DNA from: a virus
Strand: one strand, 5' to 3'
Length of the DNA: 64,000 nucleotides
Virus record (IMG/VR): IMGVR_UViG_3300017743_000002
Coordinates: 1-64,000 of that record
The position numbers were made by a program, and so were the translations under genes. Within the stretch, counting starts at the first letter, position 1, and every line of letters starts with the position of its first letter. Under the pieces are notes generated by a model. The model had not been told where the DNA came from and made no database searches. It saw nothing but the letters and a program-made list of their open reading frames with translations. Below are positions 46,345 through 64,000 of the stretch, piece by piece.

Positions 46345-46372
46345 TTTATTTTTCCTTTTTAATGTTAGTTAA

Positions 46373-47563
46373 TTATTTAATATTAGCCAATTGTTTAAAT
46401 CTTTCGGCTAACGTATTTGTGTTTTCAGAAATAATTTCTTTTGCAGGTGCAGTTGAAGCAACTGGTTTAGAAGCAGCTTCAGCTACAACTTTCTTAGTTC
46501 TCTTCTCAGTTCCTGTAAAATTCATTGATTCTGCCAACGTAGCGTAAACTAATTTTACTTCTCTAACAGATGATGTTCTGTCTAAGTTTTCAACAACTTT
46601 AGATTTTTGCTCATTGTTTAAGTTATAAGCTCTGAACAATCTATTAGCGTATAATAATTTTGCGTTAAGAAGGTTTACTTCGTTGATAGTAGATTTTAAA
46701 GATTTCACAGTATTGTAAGCTTCTTCTAACTCAGTTTGTAGTTTAACTACCTCTTCGTTAGCTTCTTCTTCAGCTACTACTTCTTCTTCCATTTCTTCTT
46801 CTTCTCCGTATCCCATTTCTCTAAGGATTTCATCCAAGTCGATATCTTCTTCTTCATCCATTTCTTCTTCCTCTTCTGAGATAGTTTCTTCAACTTCCTC
46901 TTCTTCGGATTCTTCCATTTCTGCTTCTTCAGATTCTTCTTCGTGAACTTCATCCTCTTCTTCTTCAGATACTTCTTCTTCAGAATCCATTTCCAATTCG
47001 GAAACTTCTTCTTCATCTTCCATATCCATTTCTAATTCTTTGATGATAGCTTCTAAATCTAACTCATCTTCTTCTTCCATCTCTTCTTCTTCTTTGTAGT
47101 TTTCTTCTACTTCTTCTTCTTCGTCCATAGAATCTTCTTCACCTTCGTGAGAACCTTCTTCTACTTCTTCTTCTTCAGAAACAGTTTCTTCTACCTCTTC
47201 TTCTTCAGAGACTTTAGCTTCTTCGATTTCGTCATCATCATGCCCTTCACCTTCTTCCAACTCATCACCTACTTCTGCAGTTTCTTCTTCAGATTCAGGT
47301 CCAAGTTCTGTGTGTGCGTCAGATGCAACATCTGATGGTTCAACTGGAGTTTCTTCATCACCACTACCAATATCACTTGAATCTAATTCCTCTTCGATTT
47401 CTTCATCATCACCTTCCATTTCAGCTTGTAGCTTCTTTGATAGGATAGATTGTAATCTTGGAGTAAATGCTTCCTCAAGTGCAATCTTAGCGTTAGCGAT
47501 AGCAGTTTCTCTTACAGCTTTAGCATCAGCAATTGCTTCTTTTAACAATTTTGAATTTGCCAT
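46373..47563 (-). CDS. gp22: Prohead scaffolding protein (gp22 position), extremely Glu-rich
   Basis: Immediately upstream of the capsid gene; long acidic central region, coiled-coil C-terminus (NLLNAKLLY...), many L/I/V-x-E sites. Confidence 0.78.
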   Translation of the reverse strand: MANSKLLKEAIADAKAVRETAIANAKIALEEAFTPRLQSILSKKLQAEMEGDDEEIEEELDSSDIGSGDEETPVEPSDVASDAHTELGPESEEETAEVGDELEEGEGHDDDEIEEAKVSEEEEVEETVSEEEEVEEGSHEGEEDSMDEEEEVEENYKEEEEMEEEDELDLEAIIKELEMDMEDEEEVSELEMDSEEEVSEEEEDEVHEEESEEAEMEESEEEEVEETISEEEEEMDEEEDIDLDEILREMGYGEEEEMEEEVVAEEEANEEVVKLQTELEEAYNTVKSLKSTINEVNLLNAKLLYANRLFRAYNLNNEQKSKVVENLDRTSSVREVKLVYATLAESMNFTGTEKRTKKVVAEAASKPVASTAPAKEIISENTNTLAERFKQLANIK

Positions 47564-47713
47564 TTTACTTGTTACTTTTAAAATTTGCTGAAGTTATTTG
47601 AGGAACCTCAATATAGAATAGTGTAAATTGGTTGTTCGGTAACTAAACATTAAAAGTTAGTATTCATTAACCAACGGAACCCACATAGACGTGGGTTATT
47701 GTAAGAATAAATA
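47564..47713 (-). promoter_or_regulatory. Putative late promoter (TATTTATT, 47706-47713) and multi-hairpin 5' leader of the scaffold-capsid operon
   Basis: Stems (plus-strand sequence) AACCCAC/GTGGGTT (47678-47697), TTGGTT/AACCAA (47628-47674) and TTGAG/CTCAA (47598-47611). Confidence 0.5.
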
Positions 47714-47782
47714 TATAAAAATTTATAAAACAATAAAAAACTAAAGAAAATAATAAGTTTTTTATAGATTTGGTGTATAGGG

Positions 47783-48418
47783 TTATTTTTTAATCTTACC
47801 CCTTTTAATATCTCTTTGTAGTTCTGCACCTGCCCCCAATACATCATTAATTGATTGGTCTATTGGCACATTACGATATTTAGCAATCTTTCTAACTGCC
47901 ATCATTACGATTCGTTTCTCTTCAGTAGAGTATCCTTCGTTTATTACTGATTCACCAAACATACCTACTATATCACCTTGATATTTATTACCCGGCTTTC
48001 CAGCAATAGCAGTTACAAATGCCAGTCTATCTTTAAGTTTACCTTTTTTTACAAAGTTAAAAAGTTTTTTTGAATCTAAATTATAATCATCAATGAATTT
48101 TTGTACGGCGATACCACGAGTACCAGTAAATCCAGCGATTCCCATTGCTTCTTTACTAGCAGCTTCGTTTACGGATTCTTCATTCATTTCAGAGATAGCT
48201 TTTTCTCTTAGTATCTCTCTTACGATTTTTCTAAGTTGTTCTTTCATCTTTGGTAATCCTTTATGTTTTGTTGCTGCAAAATCTTCAATCTCTTTTTCAC
48301 TCATTCTATCAGCGATATCTTTTATTTCATCCGAAACCTCTGAAGCAGGTACTTCACCTCTTTTGAATGCTAATGCCAATCCAAATAACTTTTGTTGTTG
48401 TTGTGATTGTGCAGGCAT
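47783..48418 (-). CDS. DUF3008-like N-terminus plus small modules; putative internal head protein
   Basis: 'MPAQSQQQQKLFG.ALA.KRG...MSEKEIEDFA.TKHKGLP'; modules separated by ESVNE and ESVINE. Confidence 0.65.
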   Translation of the reverse strand: MPAQSQQQQKLFGLALAFKRGEVPASEVSDEIKDIADRMSEKEIEDFAATKHKGLPKMKEQLRKIVREILREKAISEMNEESVNEAASKEAMGIAGFTGTRGIAVQKFIDDYNLDSKKLFNFVKKGKLKDRLAFVTAIAGKPGNKYQGDIVGMFGESVINEGYSTEEKRIVMMAVRKIAKYRNVPIDQSINDVLGAGAELQRDIKRGKIKK

Positions 48419-48422
48419 CTTA

Positions 48423-49172
48423 TTACATTAATTTTTTTAAACTATGATTCTTAAATCCATTAGAAACGTTACCTTCAAATATTGATTGTATTTTAGCAGC
48501 TAGTTTCTTACTACCATTCATTTTCAAATCATATGCAATAGCATCTACTGATGTTTCACCTTCCCATCCAGATTGATTAGTTGCTAAATGTGCAATTTCA
48601 TCAGTATCATCATCACCATCATAAAATTTAGAAGAGAATACTGTATTCTTTCTCCACTCATCATATTCCTTAGAGAATACATCTTTTGGTTTGTCTGGGT
48701 CATTCATTGGATTAGAATCCCATTCAGGTTTATCTTCTAATATTGAAATTAGTTTTCTTGCCTCAGAATGAAAGTTTGAATCAGTTAGTGCTTCTACTGC
48801 AGCTATACTCATTTTTCTTTCGTATTCTTCTTTACCTAATTTTTGTGGAGTGATTCCTAAATCTTTTGCTTTCTCACGAACATCTTTGTTTATTTTAGGA
48901 TTACCAGCTCTACCACCAGACGAATCTTTTGGTTCTGATTTAGGTTCATCTTTAGGAGTATCAGGTGCATCGTACCCAGTATCTTTAGAGAACATATTAG
49001 GTTTATCTTTCTTAGGGTTATCATCACCCTTATCATCTATCTTAGAATGAGTACCAGCCTTTACAGCAGCATCTCTACTATCTTTTGATTTAAATACAGA
49101 AGTTTCACCACTCTTTTTAGATGTTGCAGTAAATGTTTCTTCTTCGTTTAGTAAGTCAGTTAGTTTAATCAT
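48423..49172 (-). CDS. Putative internal head protein (249 aa)
   Basis: N-terminal MIKLTDLLNE leader; located between protease and scaffold; highly charged. Confidence 0.6.
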   Translation of the reverse strand: MIKLTDLLNEEETFTATSKKSGETSVFKSKDSRDAAVKAGTHSKIDDKGDDNPKKDKPNMFSKDTGYDAPDTPKDEPKSEPKDSSGGRAGNPKINKDVREKAKDLGITPQKLGKEEYERKMSIAAVEALTDSNFHSEARKLISILEDKPEWDSNPMNDPDKPKDVFSKEYDEWRKNTVFSSKFYDGDDDTDEIAHLATNQSGWEGETSVDAIAYDLKMNGSKKLAAKIQSIFEGNVSNGFKNHSLKKLM

Positions 49173-49176
49173 AGTA

Positions 49177-49722
49177 TTATTTTTTACCTAATCTTTCTTT
49201 TGCCATATTTACATCAATATCAGCAATCTCATAGTATCTACCTAAAATATTACCCATATCTTCGTATAATGCATGTAACCTTTCATCTAAACTTCTTGCT
49301 TCAGTTGCAACTTTATCAAATGCTTTATCCATTTTTTCCAACTCACTCATATTTCTTTTGATGGTTACTTTATCGAACCAATCATCGTTTTCTGAAAGAG
49401 TTAGTGTTTTAGCTGCTTCAACAATACCACCTAAAGTTTCTGCTACCTCAACGATATCAGATTGTCTTTTCATTTGTTCTTGAAATGCTTTATAAGTTGA
49501 GATAATTTCTAAGAAGTGTTTCTTAACTTCAGTTGATAATTTTTTCTCACCTTCTAATGATTCAGATAATGAAAACTTACCATCTACGATTTTTACTTCG
49601 TTTATGTTAGTTTTTCTGATATCATTATATCCTTTAGATACTTTAGTACCTTTTTGTTCAACTTTCAAACTAAATTTGTTGTTGTGAACGTAATCGTATA
49701 TGTCAAAATTCTTTTTACTCAT
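49177..49722 (-). CDS. Hypothetical head-module protein, coiled-coil (181 aa)
   Basis: Coupled to the protease gene (TAATG overlap); helical C-terminus (DWFD...YEDMG.IL.RYY). Confidence 0.65.
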   Translation of the reverse strand: MSKKNFDIYDYVHNNKFSLKVEQKGTKVSKGYNDIRKTNINEVKIVDGKFSLSESLEGEKKLSTEVKKHFLEIISTYKAFQEQMKRQSDIVEVAETLGGIVEAAKTLTLSENDDWFDKVTIKRNMSELEKMDKAFDKVATEARSLDERLHALYEDMGNILGRYYEIADIDVNMAKERLGKK

Positions 49723-50309
49723 TATCCTAATTCCGTTATAATTTCTCTCATTAAGTCTTGTGCCTTACAAAAGTTCCCACAAACATCAGTACCAATTTGT
49801 TTGGCTACTGATTCGTTCATTGGAGTCATAAATGCACCATGTGTAGATGGGTTGGAAACAAAATCCCAACCTATTAGTTCAAAATCTTCACCAACTAAAA
49901 GTTTGTTATCTTTCATTGGTTGAGTAGAACCCATACCTCTTGATGAGATACCTAAAAGGATTCCAGCTCTTAATAATTCTTTTAATATATTTCCAGAAGG
50001 AGTAGGTAAGATTTCAACTGTACCCATAACATCATTACCTTCCCAATGTACCTCTTTAATATTATGTGATACATTCTTTAGGTTAATAACTGAAGAATCT
50101 GGATGGTCTAATTCACCCAATGCTCTTCTTTCTTTAATTAAAGTTTGATATTTACTTATCTCTCTTTCTAATATTTCTTTTGGGTACACTCTACCATTTT
50201 GGTTTTCTGCACCTGAACGTTGAAGGACTCCTTTAACCAAAGTTCTACCTGATGAATCTTCGTTCACTCTTCCTTCAAATAAGTTTGTTTCTATTAATAG
50301 ATTCTTCAT
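49722..50309 (-). CDS. gp21: Prohead core protease, T4 gp21-like
   Basis: 'NQNGRVYP', 'ALGELDHP', 'NVSH', 'GISSRGMGS' and 'DFVSNPST..A'. Confidence 0.95.
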   Translation of the reverse strand: MKNLLIETNLFEGRVNEDSSGRTLVKGVLQRSGAENQNGRVYPKEILEREISKYQTLIKERRALGELDHPDSSVINLKNVSHNIKEVHWEGNDVMGTVEILPTPSGNILKELLRAGILLGISSRGMGSTQPMKDNKLLVGEDFELIGWDFVSNPSTHGAFMTPMNESVAKQIGTDVCGNFCKAQDLMREIITELG

Positions 50310-50320
50310 AATGGTTATCC

Positions 50321-51262
50321 TTATTTATGTTTTTTTAGTAACTCAGTAAATTCTCTTTTTACACCAAATGATAATCTTTTGTGAATTCCTTCTTTTACTA
50401 ATACATTAATTATATCTTTTACATTTGAATTTTCAAGTGTAATTTTATTTTTTGATAATATTGGTCTTTCTAAAAATGTATTTATTTCAAACCTTAATTC
50501 TTCAGAAAGTTTAATTCCTTCATAAATTGATTTAAGATATTTGATAAAATCTTTATCGTTTTTCATATCCTTAAAGCTCTTATCTGAAAAAATATTCTTT
50601 ACAAAATCTTTAGCATCTTTTGAATCTTGCTTTATTTGGTCAATTAAACCAAACATACCTTCATTTACTGATTCCATTAAACCAATTGCAGTAGTTCCAA
50701 CAATTCTTTCAGCTCCATCAGCGTATTTCTTATTTAAGATTGCTACTTTAGCACCACCTATATTAATTACATACATTGGTAACATACTTGTACTAAAGTG
50801 ATAATCTTTGATTTTTGCTTTCTTTAATTCTTTACCTATATCCATAAAAGATTTAGCACCTTTTACGAGGTCAGCAAGTTTATCTAAAGTCTTATCATGT
50901 TTTCCTTCTGAGATATTAGTTGAACAACCACCTTCGGTTACTCCACCACATCCACATCCACAATCATGTGATTCTTCTACTTTTTCACCAGCTCTTAGAG
51001 CTGCTAAATCAGATGCTTCAATTTCACCATCACCATCAATATCTAACTGCTTTTGTTTATCAGTTAACTCTTCATTCTTTTCACCCTTACCATCCCAAGC
51101 AGAATCAATCTTATTAAAGAATGCTTTCTTTTCTTCATCACTCATTGATGGAATAGATTTTCCTGCCTTTTCTAAAGCTTTTTTGAAAAACGCTTGATAG
51201 TCACTCTCTTCAGCCATAATAGCTTTAAGGGTTTCTTTGATAGTGTCTCTGGTAATATTCAT
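50321..51262 (-). CDS. Modular putative internal head protein with an EF-hand-like loop and a CGCGC motif
   Basis: ATG at 51262 preferred over the TTG at 51274. Contains LDIDGDGEIEASD and HDCGCGCGG; modules separated by xxE sites. Confidence 0.65.
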   Translation of the reverse strand: MNITRDTIKETLKAIMAEESDYQAFFKKALEKAGKSIPSMSDEEKKAFFNKIDSAWDGKGEKNEELTDKQKQLDIDGDGEIEASDLAALRAGEKVEESHDCGCGCGGVTEGGCSTNISEGKHDKTLDKLADLVKGAKSFMDIGKELKKAKIKDYHFSTSMLPMYVINIGGAKVAILNKKYADGAERIVGTTAIGLMESVNEGMFGLIDQIKQDSKDAKDFVKNIFSDKSFKDMKNDKDFIKYLKSIYEGIKLSEELRFEINTFLERPILSKNKITLENSNVKDIINVLVKEGIHKRLSFGVKREFTELLKKHK

Positions 51263-51274
51263 ATTAATTGCCAA

Positions 51275-51721
51275 TTATAATTTACTAATCTGTGTTACAA
51301 TAGTGTTCAATCTTTCTCTAATTTTGAACAAATTCTTTTGGGTTCTTTTCCAATATTGGTTTGAATTTAAATCACCTTCTTTTTTAATTCTACCATACCA
51401 TCTTAGGAATGTTTCTATTTCAGAAAGTTGTTTATTAACTTGAGAAATTCCCCTACCAATTTTTTGCTTTGGAGAAGATTCATCTTTTTTTAATTCTAAC
51501 CATCTATTTTCACTAACCCGTTTGTAACCATTTCCTTTATTTATGGCATCAACAAATTCATCATCATTTTCTTCTTCATCATCAGTACCATCCGTATCTT
51601 TAAAAGCAATTGGAGTTTGGTATCCAGCCACATTAGATGTGGTGGTTGCTTCATCAACATCCAACTCTTCATTTTGGATTTCTTCAATTAAATCCTCAAT
51701 AAGTTCTTTTAATTTAATCAT
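51275..51721 (-). CDS. Putative internal head/core protein (148 aa)
   Basis: MIKLKELIE leader, 'EATTTSNVAGYQTP.AF', basic helical C-terminus; head-module position. Confidence 0.62.
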   Translation of the reverse strand: MIKLKELIEDLIEEIQNEELDVDEATTTSNVAGYQTPIAFKDTDGTDDEEENDDEFVDAINKGNGYKRVSENRWLELKKDESSPKQKIGRGISQVNKQLSEIETFLRWYGRIKKEGDLNSNQYWKRTQKNLFKIRERLNTIVTQISKL

Positions 51722-52591
51722 TTATTTTTTGCTCTTCAATTCTTTAATTAATTCATAAGACATCATTAATGATGAAACATGATTATCAGAAACAACTTTA
51801 CCAATTTTAGTTTTAGCTAAAACAGAAACAGTTTCTGCTAATTTAATTTTGGTTACTTTATCTTTTATACCTTTGGATAATGATTTTAACTCAGAAACAA
51901 TAGAGGGTATTTGTTTTGAAATGTACGATTTAAAACCAGTAGTATTAGATAAGTTATTGATGTATTCTCTTAATAAGTTTTTTTGATTTTCATCTAAGTT
52001 AGAATACTTTTTGTTAAAAGTTTCTACTAATATCTTATAAGTAAGTAATCTTAAATCTTTATCTTGCTTTTTATAAGATTCTACAATCTGAGTATTAGTA
52101 TCTTTTTTAGATGATAATGTAGATTGTTTAGATGTAATAGATTCAATAAGGGTAATTTTTGAATTGAATACATCCTTAATATCATAATTATCCATCTTCT
52201 TAGATTCAAAAATCTTATAGATAGATGCCAATACTCTATAATTAGATATTGGTGACGAAAGAAAATCATCCATATTGAATGATTCATTAATCTTTTTAAT
52301 TAGATTATACTTCTCTTTATGTAATTGTTTTTGGTCAATACGATTATGAGCTTCGTTAACAGTATCTATGAACTTCTCAGCTCTTGATTCTGAATTATAC
52401 TTTTCCTTCATAAGAAGTTCGTATAATCGTAGCTCTTTATTTAACTCGGTTTTTGGACTAAAAAATTCACTAACGATTTTTTTAGCCTTCTCAGTAGCAT
52501 CCCCATTGAGAACTTCTAACGTAATTTGTCTTACGAGAAGCTCAAATAGAATACCAGTATTCTTAAATTTTGAATGTTTTACCCTCTTCAT
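51722..52591 (-). CDS. Hypothetical helical head-module protein (289 aa)
   Basis: 'KHSKFKNTGILFELLVRQIT' N-terminus; directly downstream of the portal gene with its own TATTTATA motif. Confidence 0.7.
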   Translation of the reverse strand: MKRVKHSKFKNTGILFELLVRQITLEVLNGDATEKAKKIVSEFFSPKTELNKELRLYELLMKEKYNSESRAEKFIDTVNEAHNRIDQKQLHKEKYNLIKKINESFNMDDFLSSPISNYRVLASIYKIFESKKMDNYDIKDVFNSKITLIESITSKQSTLSSKKDTNTQIVESYKKQDKDLRLLTYKILVETFNKKYSNLDENQKNLLREYINNLSNTTGFKSYISKQIPSIVSELKSLSKGIKDKVTKIKLAETVSVLAKTKIGKVVSDNHVSSLMMSYELIKELKSKK

Positions 52592-52641
52592 TGTGTTTTT
52601 ATCCTATAATAATATATCAATATACGATATAATACATCGTA

Positions 52642-52649
52642 TATAAATA
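52642..52649 (-). promoter_or_regulatory. Candidate late promoter TATTTATA
   Basis: Intergenic, 50 nt upstream of ATG 52591. Confidence 0.6.
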
Positions 52650-52675
52650 TAAGTTAATTTTGATTTCCTAAAATT

Positions 52676-54433
52676 TTATTCATTAATCAAATTATCGTCA
52701 TCTAAAAAGTCTCCGTTTTCACTCATTAACTTCCTTTTTGCCGAAACTCCGTTAACATATTCTTTAGCAACTTTTTGCGTAGTTTTACTAACTCTACCTT
52801 CAGTTTTCTTTAACGCTTTTTGATTTTCTTTTTTACCTAATGGGTCTCTCCCATAAGGATGTTTATCTTTACCATAGGTGTTTCCCTCTCTAGGTCTACC
52901 ACCTTTGTTCTTTAATTCAGTTTTTAATTCTTCTAGTTCATCTTCAACATCAGTAGGTTCTTGCTCCATTGCTGGGTCACTTCCTTCATCTTCAATTGAA
53001 CGATATCTGAATCTATCTTTAAGGTCATTAACAAGTTGAACCTTTTGAAAGTCAACCTCATCATCACTAAAATTAAATATATTTTTATATGCCCAATCTT
53101 TAGATACCATATTTAATCCTTGAATATCAGAAACCAATCTAACTTTTTCACTCCATAAATTTACCTTTTCTTGCTCATATATAGTAGATGGATTAACTAA
53201 GTTTAGTTCAAAATCTACCATTTCTTTACCCTCAATACCTTGTGCAGCTAAATGAGTTACTGCTAACTTAGTTAATTCAGATATTAAAGTTCTTTGGATT
53301 CTTTCGATTGTTCTTGCAAATCTTACATCTTCTGCAGCAAGAGTTGCTTTACCATTTACATTCTCATCATATCCCAAATATGCTTTTGGAATCTTTAGAG
53401 CTGCAAACATTTTATTCTTTAAGTAATCAATATCATCAATTGCAGTATATTCTAAACCACCTAATGAATCTATTTGAGTACCACTATCACCACCCCTAAC
53501 AGGTAAGAAGAAATCTTCAGTTAGGTTTTGGATGTTATACTTTAAGTTATAATCACCAGTATTTTTATCTACAAATGGAGTTTTTTTCATTTTGTTGATA
53601 ATTCTCTGCATATAGTTATCAACTTCTTGTGGTGGAATATTACCAATATCAATTTTGAAAACTCTCTTATCAGGTGCTCTCATAATTCTATGAATTAACA
53701 TTGCATCTTCCATAAGAGAAACTTGTTTCCAAATTCTTCTACCATTCTCAATCATTGCTTTACCATAAGGTAAGAAGTTTGTATCTGATAATAATCTGAA
53801 ATGTACTATTTCGTAGTTCTCATATTCACCTTTACCATTTGGGTCATGATTTACTTTGAACTTAATGTAGTTTGCATTGTTTGGGTCAGTATTTTCTAAT
53901 CTTTCAGTTTCATAAACTGGAAGTGGTCTTACATTTATAATACCAACACCTGGCTGAATTTCTTGTAATAAAAAGAAATCACCATACTTAACCATATTTC
54001 GTGTCCAAGACCATAGGTTAAATTCTATATTAAGAATATCATAGAAAAGATTCTCTAATATTTCTTTTATTTTTTCGTTTTTCGATTTAATTTGTACAAC
54101 ATCTCCAAATTCATTTTTTAATGTTGATTCATCTGCGTAGATATCTAATGCTGATGAAATAATCGGGTCATTATCCATTGCATCATAATCTCTGAAAAGT
54201 TCTCTTCTGACTTGATGGTATGCCATCGATTGAGCTGCCATCTGGTCTCCATAAAAAGACCTTTGTAGTTTGGTGTACCTATCTCTTAAATTCATTAAGT
54301 TAGTACCACCCCTCTGTCTATCATCAGTATCAACTACCTTTCTCTTTCCATCTTTATCAACCTTTACGATTGCTTGAGTAGAAAAAAGTTTAGTTAACCT
54401 TTCAAAAAATGAACTATTATTTTGTTCTGCCAT
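52676..54433 (-). CDS. gp20: Portal protein, T4 gp20-like
   Basis: 'LMEDAMLIHRIMRAPDKRVFKIDIGN.P', 'EDFFLPVRGG..GTQI.SL.G', 'ALKIP' and 'EDVRF'. Confidence 0.97.
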   Translation of the reverse strand: MAEQNNSSFFERLTKLFSTQAIVKVDKDGKRKVVDTDDRQRGGTNLMNLRDRYTKLQRSFYGDQMAAQSMAYHQVRRELFRDYDAMDNDPIISSALDIYADESTLKNEFGDVVQIKSKNEKIKEILENLFYDILNIEFNLWSWTRNMVKYGDFFLLQEIQPGVGIINVRPLPVYETERLENTDPNNANYIKFKVNHDPNGKGEYENYEIVHFRLLSDTNFLPYGKAMIENGRRIWKQVSLMEDAMLIHRIMRAPDKRVFKIDIGNIPPQEVDNYMQRIINKMKKTPFVDKNTGDYNLKYNIQNLTEDFFLPVRGGDSGTQIDSLGGLEYTAIDDIDYLKNKMFAALKIPKAYLGYDENVNGKATLAAEDVRFARTIERIQRTLISELTKLAVTHLAAQGIEGKEMVDFELNLVNPSTIYEQEKVNLWSEKVRLVSDIQGLNMVSKDWAYKNIFNFSDDEVDFQKVQLVNDLKDRFRYRSIEDEGSDPAMEQEPTDVEDELEELKTELKNKGGRPREGNTYGKDKHPYGRDPLGKKENQKALKKTEGRVSKTTQKVAKEYVNGVSAKRKLMSENGDFLDDDNLINE

Positions 54434-54459
54434 TTTATTTACTTTATGTTATAATCTAA

Positions 54460-54491
54460 CTAAGATACAAAAAAATTTTGATATATCCTAA
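54460..54491 (-). promoter_or_regulatory. Possible Bacteroidota-type sigma-A promoter upstream of portal
   Basis: Minus strand TTAG-N20-TATCTTAG versus the consensus TTTG-N19-21-TAnnTTTG (one mismatch per box). Confidence 0.4.
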
Positions 54492-54496
54492 TTTTA

Positions 54497-54904
54497 TTAC
54501 CATGCTTTACAACTCCAATACCTAGCTTTGTGTCTTGGTCCCGGCGTATCACAATTGTGTCTAGCTCTAAAAGCTTTTCTTCTTGATGGAATATCTTTCT
54601 GAATCTGCATTGTCTTTTCACCTGCTTTTTTAGCCGATGTTCCACCATGTCCGAAGTTTACCTTTACAACATTTCCTTTTGGATTTTTAACATATACTTT
54701 AAACTTTTTAACATCTCCCCTCATAGGTTTGTTTAGTTTAACGTTTCTACCCTGATATTCAGCTTCGTTGATATCTTCTTTTACATCTTTTAGAAAGCTA
54801 ACAAACTCCTTTAAATCATAATAATTTTCTACATCGTATTCTTCGATGTTTTCATCTAAAACTGATTTAAATTCTTTGTAAAGTTCTTCCGAATAATTTT
54901 CCAT
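54497..54904 (-). CDS. Small phage protein with acidic leader and basic domain (VKVNFG...RRKAFRARHNC...ARYWSC)
   Basis: Acidic N-terminus ending DINE, then a basic domain of a type recurring in T4-like phages; own TATTTATA motif. Confidence 0.7.
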   Translation of the reverse strand: MENYSEELYKEFKSVLDENIEEYDVENYYDLKEFVSFLKDVKEDINEAEYQGRNVKLNKPMRGDVKKFKVYVKNPKGNVVKVNFGHGGTSAKKAGEKTMQIQKDIPSRRKAFRARHNCDTPGPRHKARYWSCKAW

Positions 54905-54932
54905 GCTTAATTCCTATAATTAACCTATACTA

Positions 54933-54940
54933 TATAAATA
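54933..54940 (-). promoter_or_regulatory. Candidate late promoter TATTTATA
   Basis: Intergenic, 28 nt upstream of ATG 54904. Confidence 0.6.
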
Positions 54941-54953
54941 TAAAATTTTTATT

Positions 54954-56537
54954 TTATAACCATTTAGTTAAATCTTCAACATCATCACCAACATTCATTT
55001 GCCAAGGATTTTCCTCATTATCATTACCACCATATATCCCACTATAAGTATGAGATGAGATACCATCAATCGCTCTTTTAGTTAAATCGATACCTTCCTG
55101 TCTTAATCGCAAAGCAGTATCTCTAACCCACAACGAAATTGCTAAACTCATTGTTAAATCATCATTATAACCCCTCATAGCTTCAGCTCTACCATGCATC
55201 CATATAAATGTGAATAATTCATCAATAGTTCTAACTGAACGTATTATAATTGATTTCTCTCTAACATACTCTTCTAACTTAGAAATAATCAAAGGTCTAG
55301 TTCTTGAAGTAGTTGAAAATCCAGCTACCATACTTTTATCTTGAGAACGATATCTATTTGAGTGTTGATGTTCTATATCTACATATTTTAAATCCTTACT
55401 CATGTAATATAAGTTAGGATAATTTCTATCAATAACTTGTTGAATAGTTGCCCAACCGATATTTGCGTTTTCAATAACCAACAATGCGTTGTTATATTCA
55501 GTTGATAGAGATACTAAGAAATTACCAAAATCTTTGGTATCTAACTTACCTCTATATTCAGCTACTTGTTCCGATGCTTCAACATCAATAACGTGAGCAG
55601 CAGAGTAATCCGAAGAATCACCTCTAGCAACATCCGCTACAACTATATAAGTTTTTGTATAATCAGGAAATTGCCATTTCCATAAGTTTCCGTCAAAACC
55701 ACCCCTTTCAACTGGTTCTTGTACATAAGTTTCTTTGTAAAATTGAAGTATTTGTGGGTCAATAACCGAATCACCAGAAGATACAAAATCACAATCACAT
55801 TCTTGTGCTGCTCCTTTTGGTCCTAATAGAGTTTCTTGCTCATCTCTCCAACTTTGGTCTCTTTCGGGATGAACACTCCAATGTAATCTAATATTATTAA
55901 ATCCATTTGTACCATCTTCAGAACCTACCCAAGTTTTGTGAAAGAAGTTACCTACACCATTTGGAGTAGATAAAATAATTGCATTACCACCCGTTGATAA
56001 TGTAGATTGAGCCGATACCCAAATCTCTTCAATCTTATCAATGAATGCCGCTTCATCAAATACCAAAAGGGATAATGCTTCAGAACGTCCAGCATCTCCA
56101 GCAGCTGAAGTTGCTTTTATTTGGGAACCATTTGAATATCTTAAAGATAGTTTGTTATCTTCAACTGTTGTTAGTTTTAACCAAGATGGTAGATAGTGAT
56201 TCATTACCCTAACCTTAGTTACTAAGTTCTTTGCTACTTCTTGCTTTGTTGCAATTACCAAACAATTAAAATCATCATTGAATAACATTTTCCACAAAGA
56301 AAATCCTGCAGTTAATGTTGATATACCAGTTTGTCTGGATTTAAGAATAACATTATATCTATGATTTTTAAAATCAACTAATGTTTCTTCTTGAAAAGGA
56401 TATAAGTGAAAAGGAATCTTACCCCTAACAGGATGTTGAATCATACAATACTTTCGCATGAAGTAAATAGGGTCAGATGCACACTTTTTGTACTCTACCG
56501 CTATAATTTCTTTTAATGATGCCTTTTTTTTAGCCAA
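54954..56537 (-). CDS. gp17: Terminase large subunit, T4 gp17-like (TTG start)
   Basis: Walker A KSRQTGIST, Walker B LLVFDEAAF, coupling motif STPNG, RNase H-like ADVARG...DDLTMS. Confidence 0.96.
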   Translation of the reverse strand: MAKKKASLKEIIAVEYKKCASDPIYFMRKYCMIQHPVRGKIPFHLYPFQEETLVDFKNHRYNVILKSRQTGISTLTAGFSLWKMLFNDDFNCLVIATKQEVAKNLVTKVRVMNHYLPSWLKLTTVEDNKLSLRYSNGSQIKATSAAGDAGRSEALSLLVFDEAAFIDKIEEIWVSAQSTLSTGGNAIILSTPNGVGNFFHKTWVGSEDGTNGFNNIRLHWSVHPERDQSWRDEQETLLGPKGAAQECDCDFVSSGDSVIDPQILQFYKETYVQEPVERGGFDGNLWKWQFPDYTKTYIVVADVARGDSSDYSAAHVIDVEASEQVAEYRGKLDTKDFGNFLVSLSTEYNNALLVIENANIGWATIQQVIDRNYPNLYYMSKDLKYVDIEHQHSNRYRSQDKSMVAGFSTTSRTRPLIISKLEEYVREKSIIIRSVRTIDELFTFIWMHGRAEAMRGYNDDLTMSLAISLWVRDTALRLRQEGIDLTKRAIDGISSHTYSGIYGGNDNEENPWQMNVGDDVEDLTKWL

Positions 56538-61370: not shown

Positions 61371-61775
61371 TTATACTTTAACAAATGGAGAATCTACAAC
61401 TTCGCCACCGTCAACGCCGTTGTTTCCACCTCGTCCACCTTGTTGTGCCTGTTGTTCCATTTGTTCTTTAATAGCTGGGTTATAAGTAACTGTACCCTTT
61501 TCTAAATCTAATTGACCTCTTGGGTAATCTCTTTCTAACTTATTCAACTCTTTTCTAAGCTCAGCGTTAACTTCTTTGAAGTTAGTTTCAGCTTGAGTGA
61601 ATGCCTCATCAATTCTTTCTAAATCAGAATGTAATTGATTTTTTCTAATATGCAACTCACCAATTTGACCCATTAGTTGTTGTAACTGTCCATTATATCC
61701 TTTGATTTCTTTGACCTTATCTTCTGATAATTCAGCCGTTCTTAAATCAATCGATGTTTTTTGTTCTTTTGCCAT
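61371..61775 (-). CDS. Small coiled-coil protein (134 aa)
   Basis: Heptad-rich helix followed by 'YPRGQLDLEKG.V'; own TATTTATA motif. Confidence 0.7.
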   Translation of the reverse strand: MAKEQKTSIDLRTAELSEDKVKEIKGYNGQLQQLMGQIGELHIRKNQLHSDLERIDEAFTQAETNFKEVNAELRKELNKLERDYPRGQLDLEKGTVTYNPAIKEQMEQQAQQGGRGGNNGVDGGEVVDSPFVKV

Positions 61776-61825: not shown

Positions 61826-62581
61826 TTATAAGTTTTCGTAATCTATTGTTGTAACACCTCTCTTTTGTACTACTTGTGCTGAACAACGATTTCCGAACTG
61901 TATTGATTTTGGAATATCATCAGTATCTAATAACATTTTAACAAACCCTGCTACAAATGTATCACCAGCTCCTGAGATATCCATTATCTCTACTTTTTCG
62001 GTTGGATATGATATACCTTTGTACATACATCCATCCTTATCTAATGTAATTATTAGCTTTTCTAAAATCCAATCGTTTTTTTCAATAAATTCTTTATTAT
62101 TTTCAAACTCTGAACGATTTAGTTTTATGAATCGTAAATCCTTACACCAATTACCCAATTGCTTCTTTGTATCACAAATTACATTTGGATGTTTGAATCC
62201 GATATATGCTATATCTTCTTCGGTTAGGAATCCCTTATTGTAATCAGAAACTACAATCATTTGGTATTCCCAATAATCTATATCGGTAAGTAGTTTGTTA
62301 CCTATCCTATCGATATTTTTTTCTTCATCAATTCTTAATAATAAAGTGTTTGATGATTCGTGAATATGTCTTGTCTTTGTAATGGGAGATTTTTGATGAT
62401 GAAAATCCACATCAATACTCAATGATGTTAAGTTAGCTAATACATTCATTCCCATTCCACCATTGAAAACTTCTCTTTTTGGAATAAATACAGGAGCAGG
62501 TCCTTCGGGTGAAAGACGGGGTGTATCTCCATAAATGAAGATATCATCACATTGTTCTCCTATTAATAAAACTTTACTCAT
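61826..62581 (-). CDS. hldA: Heptose-7-phosphate kinase (HldE domain I / HldA, PfkB family)
   Basis: 'IG....D.FIYG...RLSPEGPAPV', 'TKTR', 'SDYNKG' and PfkB motif 'DISGAGDTF'. Confidence 0.9.
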   Translation of the reverse strand: MSKVLLIGEQCDDIFIYGDTPRLSPEGPAPVFIPKREVFNGGMGMNVLANLTSLSIDVDFHHQKSPITKTRHIHESSNTLLLRIDEEKNIDRIGNKLLTDIDYWEYQMIVVSDYNKGFLTEEDIAYIGFKHPNVICDTKKQLGNWCKDLRFIKLNRSEFENNKEFIEKNDWILEKLIITLDKDGCMYKGISYPTEKVEIMDISGAGDTFVAGFVKMLLDTDDIPKSIQFGNRCSAQVVQKRGVTTIDYENL

Positions 62582-62957
62582 CTAATAATCCAGTTGTTGA
62601 GAATCCTTCTACTTTAGGGAAGTATTCTATTTTCTTAGCATGTTTTCTACCAATAATACCTTTCGTTTTGTATTCTTCTCCAATTACAAAAATATCTGGT
62701 TGGTATTCTTTTATAGCATCAGATAATTCTTTATCGGTATCAAATACCACAATACCATTAACTCCATTAATTTGAAGTAGATTATATATTCTTTGTTTTT
62801 CATTATGAAAAGGTCTATTATCTCCCTTTGATTCTTTTACTCTTCTATCAGAATCAATTCCTATCATTAATTTTTCTCCCAATGATTTTGCATGTGCAAT
62901 TAATTGAAAGTGTCCGTGATGAAGAACATCGAAACAACCATTAATCCAAATCTTCAT
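62574..62957 (-). CDS. hldC: Heptose-1-phosphate adenylyltransferase (HldE domain II / HldC)
   Basis: 'NGCFDVLHHGH', 'GIDSD..V...KG..RPF', 'PD.FV.G.EY' and 'GFSTT'. Confidence 0.9.
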   Translation of the reverse strand: MKIWINGCFDVLHHGHFQLIAHAKSLGEKLMIGIDSDRRVKESKGDNRPFHNEKQRIYNLLQINGVNGIVVFDTDKELSDAIKEYQPDIFVIGEEYKTKGIIGRKHAKKIEYFPKVEGFSTTGLLDE

Positions 62958-64000
62958 TTATAAAAACTTTTTTAATTCACTTATTACCATATCTGAAGTA
63001 ATCTCCTTAGTACACTCAAATTGTCTGTTAGTACCCTTATGGTCAGGACACCAATCCCAATCACCAGCATCTAATCCTAATCGGTTAAAACATCCACTAC
63101 ACTTTCCTTTAGGTGAACCGATTCTTACACAATCTTTCATTTCTGCCCAAAGCTCTGAGAATCCACTAATCAAAACTGTCTTTGTTCCTAACGCCCAACT
63201 TAACCAACTCAATCCACTACCAATACCAATGAATGCTTTTGATTTAGCCATTTCATCCATAACTGATTCTAATGGTCCTTCTGGGTGTTTTATTATTCCC
63301 TTTGGGTGTGTGTTACCCATATAGTTATCACCCTCTTTTGAAAGTAATTTAACTTTATAGCCTTTATCATTTAACCAATCTACTACATCCTGCCAACCAG
63401 TTGGGTTGTTCCAATATTTTGGTTGAGCAGTTCCATGTATTGCTATTGTGATTAGTTTATCATCTTTCTCAACATTTCTATCTTTTAACTTTGGTTTTAT
63501 TTCTTTATATTCCAATCCTAATATGTCAGTTGCCATTTTTTGCATAGTAACTTCTTTTGGGTCTGTTGGATTTTTAAAGTAATCAATACTACCATCATTA
63601 TAAAATAATCCCAAATTGTACATAGCATATAAATTAGGAACAACATCACCTGGCTTCACAAACTCAATATTAGGATATTGTTTTTTTAACATATCATTAT
63701 GAAATGTAGATGTAACTATTTTACAATTATGTTGTTTACCAAACTCCTCAACATATGGAAACCATGCCAATGTATCTCCCAATGCTTTTGAATCTAGTGC
63801 AATATAAACTCGCTTATTAGTTGCATTATAATTTTTTTCAACTACAAGTTTATCGTTTTGCCAAACTCTAATTGTCCAATCTACGAAATATCTAATATTA
63901 GATTTAGCCCAATGATTTGTTTTTAGTTCAGTTTCATAATGTATAAAATTTGTTTTTTTATCTATAAATTCAACTCTATATGTTAAATTCTCTGAACCTA
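62958..64000 (-). CDS. Aah/TibC-family protein O-heptosyltransferase (5' end outside the window)
   Basis: Frame is open to base 64000 (...YRVEFID...WAKSNIRYFVDWTIRVW...RVYIALDSKALGDTLAWFPYVEEF). Also 'KYWNNPTGW', 'FIGIGSGLSWLSWA', 'LISGFS' and the four-Cys motif CSGC-x13-WCP-x9-ECT. The track's start at 63782 is an internal TTG. Confidence 0.9.
   Translation of the reverse strand, partial: GSENLTYRVEFIDKKTNFIHYETELKTNHWAKSNIRYFVDWTIRVWQNDKLVVEKNYNATNKRVYIALDSKALGDTLAWFPYVEEFGKQHNCKIVTSTFHNDMLKKQYPNIEFVKPGDVVPNLYAMYNLGLFYNDGSIDYFKNPTDPKEVTMQKMATDILGLEYKEIKPKLKDRNVEKDDKLITIAIHGTAQPKYWNNPTGWQDVVDWLNDKGYKVKLLSKEGDNYMGNTHPKGIIKHPEGPLESVMDEMAKSKAFIGIGSGLSWLSWALGTKTVLISGFSELWAEMKDCVRIGSPKGKCSGCFNRLGLDAGDWDWCPDHKGTNRQFECTKEITSDMVISELKKFL

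What the first reader, a model, noticed from the sequence alone, without database searches (positions are those of the whole stretch)
61826..64000. Phage-encoded protein O-heptosylation system: Aah/TibC transferase with its own ADP-heptose supply, beside the virion genes
Seen: three abutting or overlapping genes (transferase, hldC, hldA) co-oriented with and upstream of the morphogenesis cluster. The transferase keeps LGDTLAW, YWNNPTGW, GSGLSWL and all four iron-finger cysteines (CSGC...WCPDHKGTNRQFEC). Established: Aah/TibC are iron-containing dodecameric enzymes that transfer heptose from ADP-heptose onto serines of bacterial autotransporter adhesins; HldA and HldC perform the kinase and adenylyltransferase steps; ADP-heptose is the ALPK1 agonist. 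No autotransporter is present here, but about 12,600 aa of Ser/Thr/Gly-rich virion protein is. Inference: the phage hyper-heptosylates its own fibres and capsid for folding, protease shielding, adhesion or LPS mimicry. GmhA, GmhB and HldD are not in the window and must lie elsewhere or come from the host.
Basis: partly seen in the sequence, partly recalled or inferred. Interest (0 to 1): 0.93.

Follow-up and report, generated by a model that had tools for sequence, protein, structure and literature searches.

The report
Phage heptose cassette for sugar-coating fibres
A common marine phage carries a protein-heptosylating enzyme of the TibC/Aah family together with two ADP-heptose-making genes, and comparison with hundreds of phages and bacteria indicates that this branch of the family most likely sugar-coats serine/threonine-rich collagen-like fibre proteins rather than the bacterial adhesins known so far.

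Summary
On the minus strand lie three coupled genes. One is a TibC/Aah-family (BAHT) glycosyltransferase: NCBIfam TIGR04414 scores 294 bits against a cut-off of 200, and the model matches TibC at TM 0.83. The others are an HldC-like adenylyltransferase and a short HldA-like kinase. They sit just upstream of terminase, portal and capsid genes in a widespread marine phage. The transferase runs off the window, and its ATG overlaps the stop of a 727-aa glycosyltransferase/methyltransferase fusion.

This enzyme belongs to an apparently undescribed sister branch of the autotransporter heptosyltransferases. Members of that branch never sit beside AIDA-type autotransporters. They sit beside proteins with (Gly-Thr/Ser-Ser)n collagen-like tracts, in phages and in Methylococcaceae and Comamonadaceae genomes and MAGs. 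Viral contigs sampled only for such tracts carry the enzyme in 20 of 75 cases, against 0 of 41 controls. This phage's two tract-bearing proteins are giant tail fibres.

Nothing supports capsid glycosylation. The link is enriched, not one-to-one. GmhA, GmhB and HldD are absent from the 102 kb held. The adenine-contacting Arg286 is Val here, so the donor sugar is inferred, not shown. The scan noted this same stretch before in another window.

The parts
62958..64000 (-). BAHT (TibC/Aah)-family protein O-heptosyltransferase-like gene. It continues past the window end to an ATG at genome 64097 (379 aa) or a TTG at 64103 (381 aa).
   Evidence: TIGR04414 scores 294 bits against a cut-off of 200. phmmer finds TibC 4RAP at E 2e-49. 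The AF2 model has pLDDT 87.6 and matches 4RAP at TM 0.83. Asp110, Thr225, Lys229, Trp300 and the four Cys are kept; TibC Arg286 is Val281 here. Its ATG overlaps the TGA of the upstream 727-aa GT/MT fusion.
62574..62957 (-). HldC-like heptose-1-phosphate adenylyltransferase (127 aa).
   Evidence: PF01467 at E 6e-17. TIGR02199 scores 98.5 bits, the best family but below its cut-off. phrog_7878 scores 124 bits. The HxGH motif is present as CFDVLHHGH. Homologues are annotated in T4-like cyanophages.
61826..62581 (-). HldA-like heptose-7-phosphate kinase, short form (251 aa); overlaps hldC by 8 nt.
   Evidence: PfkB at E 4e-19. TIGR02198 scores 111 bits, the best family but below its cut-off. phrog_8133 scores 251 bits over its full length. 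The best PDB hit is HldA 4E84, sharing the RxSPExPxPV and GAGD motifs.
61371..61775 (-). 134-aa coiled-coil protein that closes the cassette; paralogous to a 92-aa ORF upstream of the cassette.
   Evidence: Conserved directly after hldA, or after the transferase where hldC/hldA are missing, in 32 related loci. It shares the C-terminal motif GQ(I/L)DL(D/E)KGT(I/V)T with ORF 66344-66622.
11503..22260 (-). 3585-aa tail-fibre-type protein with about 880 aa of proline-free (G-T/S-S)n collagen-like tracts at aa 2267-3585; main candidate acceptor.
   Evidence: Pfam Collagen at E 6e-99. The tracts hold GTS x124 and GSS x83, with 0% Pro. Composition is S22 T12 G18.
1..9369 (-). 3123+-aa fibre-type protein (its 3' end is cut by the window) with about 390 aa of (G-S/T-S)n tracts at aa 277-663; second candidate acceptor.
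   Evidence: Pfam Collagen at E 3e-45. The tracts hold GSS x61 and GTS x38. Its N-terminal part is homologous to the 'structural protein' that lies beside the TibC fusion of Microcystis phage Mel-JY01.
10102..10560 (-). Tail-fibre assembly chaperone lying between the two collagen-like genes (context: marks them as tail fibres).
   Evidence: PF16778 Phage_tail_APC at E 1e-17.
44743..56537 (-). Head and packaging module (terminase large subunit 54954-56537, portal 52676-54433, gp23-like capsid 44743-46344), about 5 kb downstream of the cassette.
   Evidence: PHROGs phrog_2, phrog_213 and phrog_138.

Best explanation
The stretch is the 3' three-quarters of a four-gene, translationally coupled glycosylation cassette of a common marine myovirus-type phage. 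The gene order is: GT4-methyltransferase-(GT25) fusion, BAHT-like transferase, HldC-like, HldA-like.

Proposed mechanism:
1. HldA phosphorylates host-made D-glycero-D-manno-heptose-7-P.
2. A host phosphatase (GmhB-like) removes the 7-phosphate.
3. HldC makes ADP-D,D-heptose, raising the donor pool during infection.
4. The soluble, iron-finger BAHT-like enzyme transfers heptose in the cytoplasm onto Ser/Thr of the phage's own tail-fibre proteins. The main sites would be the long proline-free (Gly-Thr/Ser-Ser)n collagen-like tracts of the 3585-aa and 3123+-aa fibres.
5. The upstream fusion protein extends and O-methylates the glycan.

Shown: gene identities, their coupling, family and fold, conserved catalytic residues, and the statistical and phylogenetic link of this enzyme branch to GTS-tract proteins.

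Inferred: the donor sugar, the acceptor, the order of steps, and the purpose. Possible purposes are stabilising or solubilising a collagen helix that has no proline, shielding it from proteases, or adhesion.
For: 1. Family. TIGR04414 scores 294 bits against a cut-off of 200. The fold matches TibC at TM 0.83, against WaaC/WaaF at 0.37-0.51. The catalytic Asp, the phosphate-binding Thr/Lys, the heptose-O4 Trp and the four Cys are invariant in 21 phage homologues.

2. Coupling. There is an ATGA overlap with the upstream GT fusion, the transferase stop abuts the hldC start, and hldC overlaps hldA by 8 nt. The same order occurs in 25 related IMG/VR loci. A different phage (G006) has the transferase and hldC-hldA unlinked in one genome.

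3. Phylogeny. A deep split with 100% support separates autotransporter-linked BAHTs from a clade holding all phage enzymes plus Methylococcaceae and Comamonadaceae ones.

4. Neighbours in GTDB genomes. Of 35 loci at >=43.5% identity, 19 have a (G-[STA]-[STA])>=4 tract ORF in the locus, 17 of them within about 1.2 kb, and 0 have an AIDA autotransporter. Of 45 loci at <=36% identity, 0 have such a tract and 19 have an AIDA autotransporter in the locus, 18 of them within 2.5 kb. Fisher p is 3.5e-9 and 2.3e-6. The three bacterial neighbours that I translated are small proteins with an N-terminal signal-like hydrophobic stretch, judged by eye; two carry (GTS)n or (GTA)n tracts and one a Ser-rich tract.

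5. Phages. 9 of 20 enzyme clades have an S/T-rich collagen-like ORF within 10 kb, and 3 are immediately adjacent. In complete phage G004 (271 kb), the only two such genes lie 6-20 kb upstream of the enzyme, next to its GT cluster.

6. Reverse test. Of 75 viral records sampled only for GTS-coding DNA, 20 carry the enzyme, against 0 of 41 controls (p 6.7e-5). Among records >=50 kb the counts are 16 of 29 against 0 of 27 (p 1.9e-6).

7. Four relatives without the enzyme have no such tracts.

8. In the cultured relative Mel-JY01 the enzyme is fused to GT/MT domains and lies beside a homologue of this phage's fibre N-termini.

9. In this genome GTS-type tracts occur only in the two fibre proteins.
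Against: - No glycan has been observed; everything is genomic association.
- In this phage's own clade the collagen-like fibre genes lie 40-60 kb from the cassette. The immediate neighbour is a 3357-aa protein without tracts.
- The link is not one-to-one. Mel-JY01 and LR756504 have the enzyme but no long tract. Four of eight near-complete tract-bearing viral records lack the enzyme.
- Co-occurrence counts are not phylogenetically independent, and both features may track aquatic jumbo-phage lineages.
- Glycosyltransferase clusters commonly share hypervariable regions with fibre genes, and the literature reads them as host-LPS modifiers (PMC7029224).
- TibC Arg286, which contacts adenine N1 and whose R286A mutation abolished or largely diminished activity, is Val here and hydrophobic in most of the branch. 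TibC Pro300 is Gly here. The donor may therefore differ.
- gmhA, gmhB and hldD are not in the 102 kb held. Two complete enzyme-bearing phages have no heptose genes at all.
- TibC recognises a beta-helix, not a collagen rod.
Confidence: 0.55

Rival explanations
1. Host-surface remodelling. The cassette heptosylates and extends a host envelope molecule (LPS core, capsule, or a host surface protein) during infection. This would block superinfection or prevent progeny from re-adsorbing to the infected cell. It is the usual reading of 'LPS genes' in marine myophages.
For: - hldA/hldC pairs, often with gmhA, are common in T4-like cyanophages that lack any BAHT gene, so phage-made ADP-heptose has other uses.
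- Glycosyltransferases and rfaE in fibre-gene regions of pelagimyophages have been interpreted this way (PMC7029224).
- The GT4, GT25 and methyltransferase domains of the upstream fusion are typical of polysaccharide synthesis.
Against: - The enzyme is BAHT-type, not WaaC/WaaF-type (27 against 294 bits; TM 0.4-0.5 against 0.83). Known BAHTs act on proteins in the cytoplasm (PMC4358343).
- The branch-specific link to GTS-tract proteins, including adjacent GTS-tract gene neighbours in bacterial genomes and MAGs, is not explained by LPS modification.
Confidence: 0.2
2. Same enzyme class and protein targets, but a different donor. This branch uses an NDP-sugar other than ADP-heptose. The HldC/HldA pair then feeds another step, such as the GT fusion, or makes a non-ADP heptose nucleotide.
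For: - The adenine-N1 contact Arg286 is kept in 44 of 46 autotransporter-type enzymes. It is V/I/L/T/A in 15 of 21 phage and 25 of 29 bacterial GTS-type enzymes.
- The C6-stereoselectivity position (TibC Pro300, AAH Ser294) is Gly in this branch.
- Only 1 of 20 enzyme-bearing sampled records, and 0 of 2 complete genomes, has an HldA-like gene.
- The best solved relatives of the HldC-like protein are cytidylyltransferases.
Against: - The transferase abuts hldC-hldA in 25 loci.
- The heptose-O4 Trp and the beta-phosphate Thr/Lys are invariant.
- NCBIfam ranks the heptose families first for both small genes.
- A phage subclade keeps the Arg.
Confidence: 0.15
3. Other phage proteins are the acceptors. 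Candidates are the adjacent 3357-aa protein, Ser-rich non-collagen fibre repeats, or head decoration. The GTS association would then be a by-product of fibre-module linkage.
For: - In the phage's own clade the conserved upstream neighbour is the 3357-aa protein, which carries CBM_5_12.
- Mel-JY01 has the enzyme next to a Ser-rich fibre protein without Gly-X-Y tracts.
Against: - In bacterial genomes and MAGs (Methylobacter, Methylococcales, Polaromonas) the neighbouring gene is a small GTS-tract protein, with no phage fibre genes noted in the loci I looked at.
- The reverse sampling test was blind to fibre context.
Confidence: 0.08
4. DNA glycosylation: the cassette hypermodifies phage DNA with sugars to evade restriction.
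For: Phage glycosyltransferases often modify DNA (reviewed in PMC12619734). One methyltransferase domain of the upstream fusion hits a PHROG named 'DNA methyltransferase'.
Against: No BAHT is known to act on DNA. The fold and the iron finger are those of a protein-binding enzyme (PMC4358343). The association with GTS proteins would be unexplained. I did not look for a hydroxymethyl-pyrimidine pathway.
Confidence: 0.02

Closest known systems
TibC / Aah (AAH) bacterial autotransporter heptosyltransferases (BAHT family; TIGR04414; PDB 4RAP, 4RB4; Yao et al. 2014, PMC4358343)
   Same: - Same family by curated HMM.
- Same fold: N-terminal beta-barrel, GT-B core and 4-Cys iron finger, at TM 0.83.
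- The catalytic Asp110, Thr226/Lys230 and Trp305 equivalents are kept.
- No membrane segment was noted, and the fold is that of soluble TibC; a membrane-topology prediction was not run.
- Genetically paired with its presumed acceptor.
   Different: - It is phage-encoded and belongs to a deep sister clade.
- Its partner is not an AIDA/TibA beta-helix autotransporter, and no TIGR04415 repeat is present. The partner is instead a (G-T/S-S)n collagen-like protein.
- Arg286 is Val and Pro300/Ser294 is Gly.
- The thumb hairpin is shorter and poorly modelled, so a dodecamer is not established.
- It is often fused to GT4 or methyltransferase domains in other phages.
hldA/hldC(/gmhA) 'LPS gene' clusters of T4-like cyanophages (P-SSM2, S-SM2, P-TIM68, S-CAM1/3, S-SSM7)
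   Same: The same short split HldA (phrog_8133) and HldC (phrog_7878), at 30-48% identity and adjacent to each other.
   Different: Those phages have no BAHT gene and often carry gmhA and an epimerase beside the pair. Here the pair is coupled to a protein glycosyltransferase and lacks gmhA in the DNA held.
Mycobacteriophage virion glycosylation (Freeman et al. 2023, PMC10527164, cited in PMC12619734)
   Same: Phage-encoded glycosyltransferases that O-glycosylate the phage's own structural proteins.
   Different: That system uses other glycosyltransferase families, other sugars, capsid and tail-tube C-termini as targets, and actinobacterial hosts. It was shown experimentally; this case is inferred only.
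Glycosylated collagen-like proteins: Bacillus anthracis BclA (GPT repeats, O-glycosylated Thr) and Mimivirus collagen (recalled from my own knowledge, not checked here)
   Same: Collagen-type Gly-X-Y tracts rich in Thr that carry O-glycans on a surface filament.
   Different: Those use rhamnose/anthrose or glucose, unrelated transferases, and proline-containing repeats.

Membership tests
BAHT (Aah/TibC) O-heptosyltransferases, TIGR04414 | Score above the curated equivalog cut-off (200 bits) | tested here: met
   294.1 bits for the full 381 aa and 289.5 bits for the part inside the window.
BAHT (Aah/TibC) O-heptosyltransferases, TIGR04414 | TibC protomer fold: N-terminal beta-barrel, GT-B catalytic domain and iron-finger insertion | tested here: met
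   The AF2 model has pLDDT 87.6. Foldseek matches 4RAP and 4RB4 at TM 0.81-0.83 over 371-388 columns, with WaaC/WaaF far behind.
BAHT (Aah/TibC) O-heptosyltransferases, TIGR04414 | Catalytic base Asp110 and donor contacts Thr226, Lys230, Trp305 | tested here: met
   These are Asp110, Thr225, Lys229 and Trp300 here. Asp and Trp are invariant in 96 aligned homologues, and Lys is kept in 95 of 96.
BAHT (Aah/TibC) O-heptosyltransferases, TIGR04414 | Arg286, which contacts adenine N1 (ADP specificity; R286A abolished or largely diminished activity) | tested here: not met
   The residue is Val281 here. It is hydrophobic or Thr in 15 of 21 phage and 25 of 29 bacterial GTS-type enzymes, and Arg in 44 of 46 autotransporter-type enzymes.
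BAHT (Aah/TibC) O-heptosyltransferases, TIGR04414 | Four iron-finger cysteines (TibC C339, C342, C358, C370) | tested here: met
   These are C335, C338, C352 and C364 here, invariant in the phage set. Iron binding itself cannot be tested with these tools.
BAHT (Aah/TibC) O-heptosyltransferases, TIGR04414 | Beta-hairpin thumb and ring dodecamer | tested here: inconclusive
   The thumb region is 3-6 residues shorter and modelled at pLDDT 68-75 without a clear hairpin. The oligomeric state cannot be tested here.
BAHT (Aah/TibC) O-heptosyltransferases, TIGR04414 | Adjacent AIDA/TibA-type autotransporter acceptor with strand-loop-strand repeats (TIGR04415, PF16168) | tested here: not met
   No TIGR04415 hit in G000, G004 or G005. 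None of 35 loci of this branch has an AIDA autotransporter, against 19 of 45 in the canonical branch.
BAHT (Aah/TibC) O-heptosyltransferases, TIGR04414 | Transfer of heptose from ADP-heptose to protein Ser | not testable with these tools
   This is inferred from family membership and from coupling to hldC/hldA only.
LPS heptosyltransferases WaaC/WaaF (GT9; TIGR02193, NF008204) | Score above cut-off and a two-Rossmann GT9 fold without barrel or iron finger | tested here: not met
   27 bits against a cut-off of 185, and 23 bits against 437. TM is 0.37-0.51.
HldA / RfaE domain I heptose-7-P kinase (TIGR02198) | Equivalog score; PfkB fold with the GAGD anion hole; N-terminal RxSPExPxPV lid motif | tested here: inconclusive
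   It is the best family but scores 111 bits against a cut-off of 345. The protein is about 65 aa shorter than the model. Both motifs are present, and the best PDB hit is HldA 4E84. phrog_8133 matches over its full length.
HldC / RfaE domain II heptose-1-P adenylyltransferase (TIGR02199) | Equivalog score; HxGH nucleotidyltransferase motif | tested here: inconclusive
   It is the best family but scores 98.5 bits against a cut-off of 181.5. The HxGH motif is present. TagD-type cytidylyltransferases score 60 bits.
Complete ADP-L,D-heptose pathway (GmhA, HldA, GmhB, HldC, HldD) | All five enzymes encoded | tested here: not met
   No GmhA, GmhB or HldD at E<=1 in the 102 kb, which is 51% of the genome. 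No GmhA in eight related or enzyme-bearing records, two of them complete.

The most novel reading that the evidence does not exclude
A previously unrecognised 'glyco-collagen' system. A distinct BAHT branch would densely O-glycosylate proline-free (Gly-Thr/Ser-Ser)n tracts with heptose, which partner GT/methyltransferase fusions then extend and methylate. The sugars would take over the stabilising role that hydroxyproline or charge pairs play in other collagens. This would let phages build micrometre-scale fibres, and let methanotrophs and Comamonadaceae build small GTS-tract proteins (apparently secreted), from a three-letter repeat. In this phage lineage the demand would be large enough that the phage brings its own ADP-heptose enzymes.
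Probability: 0.3. Interest if true: 0.85.

Novelty: new variant of a known kind. Interest (0 to 1): 0.72.

Why it matters
BAHT enzymes are known only as partners of autotransporter adhesins in pathogens. Four points follow from this work.

1. A large sister branch exists. The 50%-identity protein library holds 717 clusters at E<=1e-30, although the two branches were not separated in that count. At least 162 IMG/VR contigs carry the gene. The stretch itself is near-identical in seawater metagenomes of more than ten studies.

2. This branch has a different, predictable acceptor: GTS-type collagen-like tracts. That would explain how proline-free 'collagen' fibres of aquatic phages can fold. It also gives a concrete alternative to the default 'LPS genes / host-surface remodelling' annotation of sugar genes in marine phages.

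3. If virion fibres are heptosylated, that bears on adsorption, protease resistance and particle stickiness of abundant ocean viruses.

4. It offers a simple sequon-enzyme pair for glyco-engineering.

The idea can be tested directly in cultured systems: Methylobacter luteus, Microcystis phage Mel-JY01, or E. coli co-expression.

Tried and rejected
The 240-kb JGI contig carrying a 73%-identical enzyme (P0056) could therefore not be inspected for gmhA/gmhB.
- Searches for gmhA, gmhB and hldD in the phage's own record found nothing. So did searches for gmhA in eight related or enzyme-bearing records. Most records are fragments, so absence is shown only for the two complete genomes, which also lack hldA and hldC.
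- The AIDA-type target repeat (TIGR04415) is absent from three phage genomes. I rejected the idea of a hidden autotransporter-like acceptor.
- PHROGs has no family for the transferase.
- Pfam gave nothing for the 5931-aa protein. It has no GTS tracts, so I dropped it as a prime acceptor.
- I looked for an obligate one-to-one link between enzyme and tracts and rejected it. Mel-JY01 and LR756504 have the enzyme without long tracts, and 4 of 8 near-complete tract-bearing records lack the enzyme.
- Metatranscriptome contigs of relatives (90-99% alike) cover hldA, hldC and the transferase in four seawater RNA libraries. Contigs cannot prove transcription and DNA carry-over is possible, so I did not use this as evidence of expression.
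- Literature searches for phage + TibC, heptosyltransferase + collagen-like, BAHT, Mel-JY01, and cyanophage + heptose found no description of this system.
- The host could not be assigned. Capsid relatives infect Flavobacterium and Microcystis, and the G+C content is 33%.
- I did not test for DNA-modification pathways.


Full report
**What is there**

The window is the first 64 kb of a 102,380-b IMG/VR virus record, rated 51% complete and linear. Every gene runs on the minus strand.

The finding's three genes are real and tightly packed:
- a transferase at 62958..>64000
- a 127-aa gene at 62574..62957, which begins directly after the transferase stop
- a 251-aa gene at 61826..62581, which overlaps the previous one by 8 nt

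Reading on in the genome shows that the transferase starts at an ATG at 64097 (or a TTG at 64103). This ATG overlaps, as ATGA, the stop of a 727-aa protein with GT4, Methyltransf_24 and a weak GT25 domain. The unit is therefore a four-gene, translationally coupled cassette.

Downstream follow a 134-aa coiled-coil protein, an 1129-aa nucleotidyltransferase-containing protein, the terminase large subunit, the portal and a gp23-like capsid protein. Three giant ORFs come after these. The capsid's closest relatives are a 484-kb metagenomic phage, Flavobacterium phage immuto and Microcystis phage Mel-JY01, each at 52-54% identity. The stretch is near-identical in at least 14 marine, seawater or viral metagenome runs from more than ten studies. 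This is a common marine phage.

**Identity of the three genes**

The transferase passes NCBIfam's curated equivalog model for Aah/TibC: TIGR04414 scores 294 bits against a cut-off of 200. LPS heptosyltransferase models reach only 23-27 bits. phmmer finds only TibC in the PDB, at E 2e-49. An AlphaFold model (pLDDT 87.6) superposes on TibC 4RAP/4RB4 over its whole length at TM 0.81-0.83, while WaaC and WaaF reach 0.37-0.51.

I mapped the residues that Yao et al. (PMC4358343) showed to matter:
- The catalytic base Asp110 is present.
- The beta-phosphate ligands Thr226 and Lys230 are present.
- The heptose-O4 ligand Trp305 is present.
- All four iron-finger cysteines are present.
- These residues are invariant or nearly so in 21 phage homologues.
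- Arg286 does not match. It contacts adenine N1, and its R286A mutation abolished or largely diminished activity. Here it is Val.
- Pro300, the stereoselectivity position, also does not match. Here it is Gly.

The two small genes take the heptose families as their best NCBIfam hits, rfaE domain II at 98.5 bits and rfaE domain I at 111 bits. Both fall below the equivalog cut-offs. They match PHROG families from T4-like cyanophages over their full length. The kinase shares HldA's RxSPExPxPV and GAGD motifs with Burkholderia HldA 4E84. I call them HldC-like and HldA-like. No gmhA, gmhB or hldD is present in the 102 kb.

**How widespread the cassette is, and what varies**

Close relatives of the transferase fill metagenomes: 3,863 proteins at E<=1e-10, of which the best 120 clusters are >=68% identical. 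At least 162 IMG/VR contigs carry a relative.

In 32 loci of the phage's own clade the order is conserved: giant 3357-aa protein, small ORFs, GT fusion, transferase, [hldC, hldA], coiled-coil protein, 1129-aa protein, terminase, portal. The hldC-hldA pair is present in 25 of these loci and cleanly absent in 7.

In more distant phages the TibC-like domain is the C-terminal part of 693-910-aa fusions with GT4 or methyltransferase domains. These sit in clusters of GT4/GT2/FkbM/CmcI-type multi-domain proteins. Most of the top 150 library representatives are also fusions. In cultured Mel-JY01 it is the C-terminus of a 1226-aa protein annotated 'methyltransferase FkbM'.

Two complete enzyme-bearing phages (271 kb, and 183 kb with terminal repeats) have no gmhA, hldA or hldC. 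Only 1 of 20 further enzyme-bearing records has an HldA-like gene. One unrelated fragment carries the pair 78 kb from its transferase. The enzyme is therefore the conserved core, and the heptose genes are an extra of this lineage.

The hldA/hldC pair also occurs in many T4-like cyanophages that have no BAHT gene. There it is annotated as an LPS gene.

**What the enzyme acts on**

The phage genomes contain no AIDA-type target repeat. What recurs next to the enzyme in other phages is a Ser/Thr/Gly-rich Gly-X-Y protein. Nine of 20 enzyme clades (clustered at 70% identity) have one within 10 kb, and three have one 45-98 nt away. In the complete 271-kb phage the only two such genes in the genome lie just upstream of the GT cluster.

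The scan of one genome per GTDB species gave the sharpest result.
- Homologues >=43.5% identical to the phage enzyme (35 loci) come from Methylobacter, Methylomicrobium, other Methylococcaceae and Polaromonas, plus low-G+C contigs that look like phage DNA binned into MAGs. In 19 of these loci there is an ORF with (G-[STA]-[STA])>=4 tracts, and in 17 of them it lies within about 1.2 kb. None has an AIDA autotransporter.
- Homologues <=36% identical (45 loci) come from Burkholderiaceae, Selenomonadales and Lachnospiraceae. None has such a tract, and 19 have an AIDA/pertactin autotransporter in the locus, 18 of them within 2.5 kb.
- Fisher p is 3.5e-9 for the tracts and 2.3e-6 for the autotransporters.

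The three bacterial neighbours that I translated are small proteins with an N-terminal stretch that looks like a signal peptide by eye. One carries more than 40 consecutive GTS triplets, one carries GTS/GTA tracts, and one carries a Ser-rich tract. A tree splits the family with 100% support into the autotransporter-linked clade and a clade holding all phage enzymes plus the GTS-linked bacterial ones. The Arg286-to-hydrophobic and Ser/Pro300-to-Gly changes track this split.

**Reverse test**

I sampled IMG/VR only by a DNA pattern that encodes six Gly-Thr-(Ser/Thr-like) triplets. I then asked which whole records carry TIGR04414 above its cut-off.
- Pattern-sampled records: 20 of 75, and 16 of 29 among those >=50 kb.
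- Control records sampled by a Walker-A pattern, generally longer and more complete: 0 of 41.
- Fisher p is 6.7e-5 for all records and 1.9e-6 for those >=50 kb.

Where positions were listed, the tracts lay 2-8 kb from the enzyme in four of six records.

Among GenBank phages, four relatives without the enzyme (immuto, LR756508, RM378, LR756511) have no such tract. The enzyme-bearing LR756501 has more than 1,100 pattern matches. Mel-JY01 and LR756504 have the enzyme and no long tract. In Mel-JY01 the gene just upstream of the fusion is a Ser-rich 'structural protein'. It is homologous to the N-terminal parts of this phage's two collagen-like fibres.

**In this phage**

GTS-type tracts occur in only two proteins. 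The 3585-aa protein has about 880 tract residues, with GTS x124, GSS x83 and no proline. The 3123+-aa protein has about 390 tract residues. Both score strongly as Collagen in Pfam. A tail-fibre assembly chaperone lies between them. These are the best acceptor candidates. They lie 40-60 kb from the cassette, however, and the cassette's conserved neighbour is a tract-free 3357-aa protein.

**Verdict**

The inference that the phage glycosylates its own fibres is the best-supported reading. I sharpen it in two ways. The enzyme belongs to an apparently undescribed BAHT branch. That branch's genomic partner is the (Gly-Thr/Ser-Ser)n collagen-like tract.

Several limits apply.
- The result is an enrichment, not a rule.
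- The counts are not corrected for shared ancestry.
- No sugar has been seen on any protein.
- The donor is inferred from gene coupling, and the changed adenine contact argues for caution.
- Capsid glycosylation, LPS mimicry and ALPK1 relevance have no support.
- The main rival is host-surface remodelling, the standard reading of such genes in marine myophages (PMC7029224).

I found no paper on BAHT enzymes in phages or paired with collagen-like proteins. Virion glycosylation itself is known from mycobacteriophages, with unrelated enzymes (cited in PMC12619734).

Earlier first-stage notes of this scan on the same genome had pointed at the GTS tracts and at S/T-G/A/S-S motifs. I tested the tracts directly.

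Noticed in passing
L113:6929-9131, L120:6947-9131, L135:8040-10107, L121:7851-9928 (bacterial chromosomes and MAGs): Methylobacter luteus, Methylobacter sp., a Methylococcales MAG and Methylomicrobium lacus each carry a BAHT-like gene beside a small protein. That protein has an N-terminal signal-like hydrophobic stretch (judged by eye) and (GTS)n, (GTA)n or Ser-rich tracts. In L113 the transcription-repair gene mfd lies just upstream. I found no paper on this bacterial pair, and it offers a cultured model for the phage system.
   Followed up: partly
genome 64094-66277 (just outside the window; L002:2095-4278): A 727-aa fusion of GT4, Methyltransf_24 and a weak GT25 domain. Its TGA overlaps the transferase ATG. 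Homologous pieces accompany the TibC-like gene in 49 of 80 viral loci.
   Followed up: partly
window 61371-61775 and genome 66344-66622: Two small coiled-coil proteins flank the glycosylation cassette. They share the C-terminal motif GQ(I/L)DL(D/E)KGT(I/V)T. In several related loci the 134-aa query hits both sides of the cassette. They may be duplicated boundary genes of a mobile cassette or a shared accessory factor.
   Followed up: no
window 57923-61312: An 1129-aa protein with an N-terminal NMNAT/cytidylyltransferase-like domain. Its C-terminal 400 aa are 41% identical to the C-terminal part of Mel-JY01's 639-aa 'cytidylyltransferase like protein'. It is conserved directly upstream of the terminase throughout the clade. 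Its function is unknown.
   Followed up: no
genome 67251-77324 (L002:5252-15325): A 3357-aa protein upstream of the cassette carries a CBM_5_12 carbohydrate-binding module (aa 1665-1708). It also has a sub-threshold Hint/intein-splicing-like match near its C-terminus (aa 2883-3025), which may be a self-cleaving module.
   Followed up: no
genome 77575-78405 (L002:15576-16406): A 276-aa UDP-glucose/GDP-mannose dehydrogenase-like ORF. It covers only positions 66-298 of the 413-position family model, so it lacks the N-terminal start and the C-terminal UDP-binding domain. It may be a truncated or split sugar-nucleotide gene that belongs to the same glycan pathway.
   Followed up: no
L112, L114, L119, L123, L137, L140 (GTDB species-representative MAGs): Low-G+C contigs carrying phage-type TibC fusions and collagen-like genes are binned into MAGs labelled Bacteroides, Rickettsiaceae, Bacteroidetes (a 254-kb contig), Flavobacteriales, Winogradskyella and Acetivibrio. 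In the tree they interleave with viral contigs. They are probably jumbo-phage DNA inside MAGs, and might give host hints.
   Followed up: no
LR756501.1 103.5-105.7 kb and beyond: The 735-kb metagenomic phage has more than 1,100 overlapping matches to a six-triplet G-(S/T)-(S/T) pattern, which means kilobases of GTS/GSS-coding DNA. It also has a TibC-like gene at 580.2-581.2 kb with a short tract 6.4 kb away.
   Followed up: no
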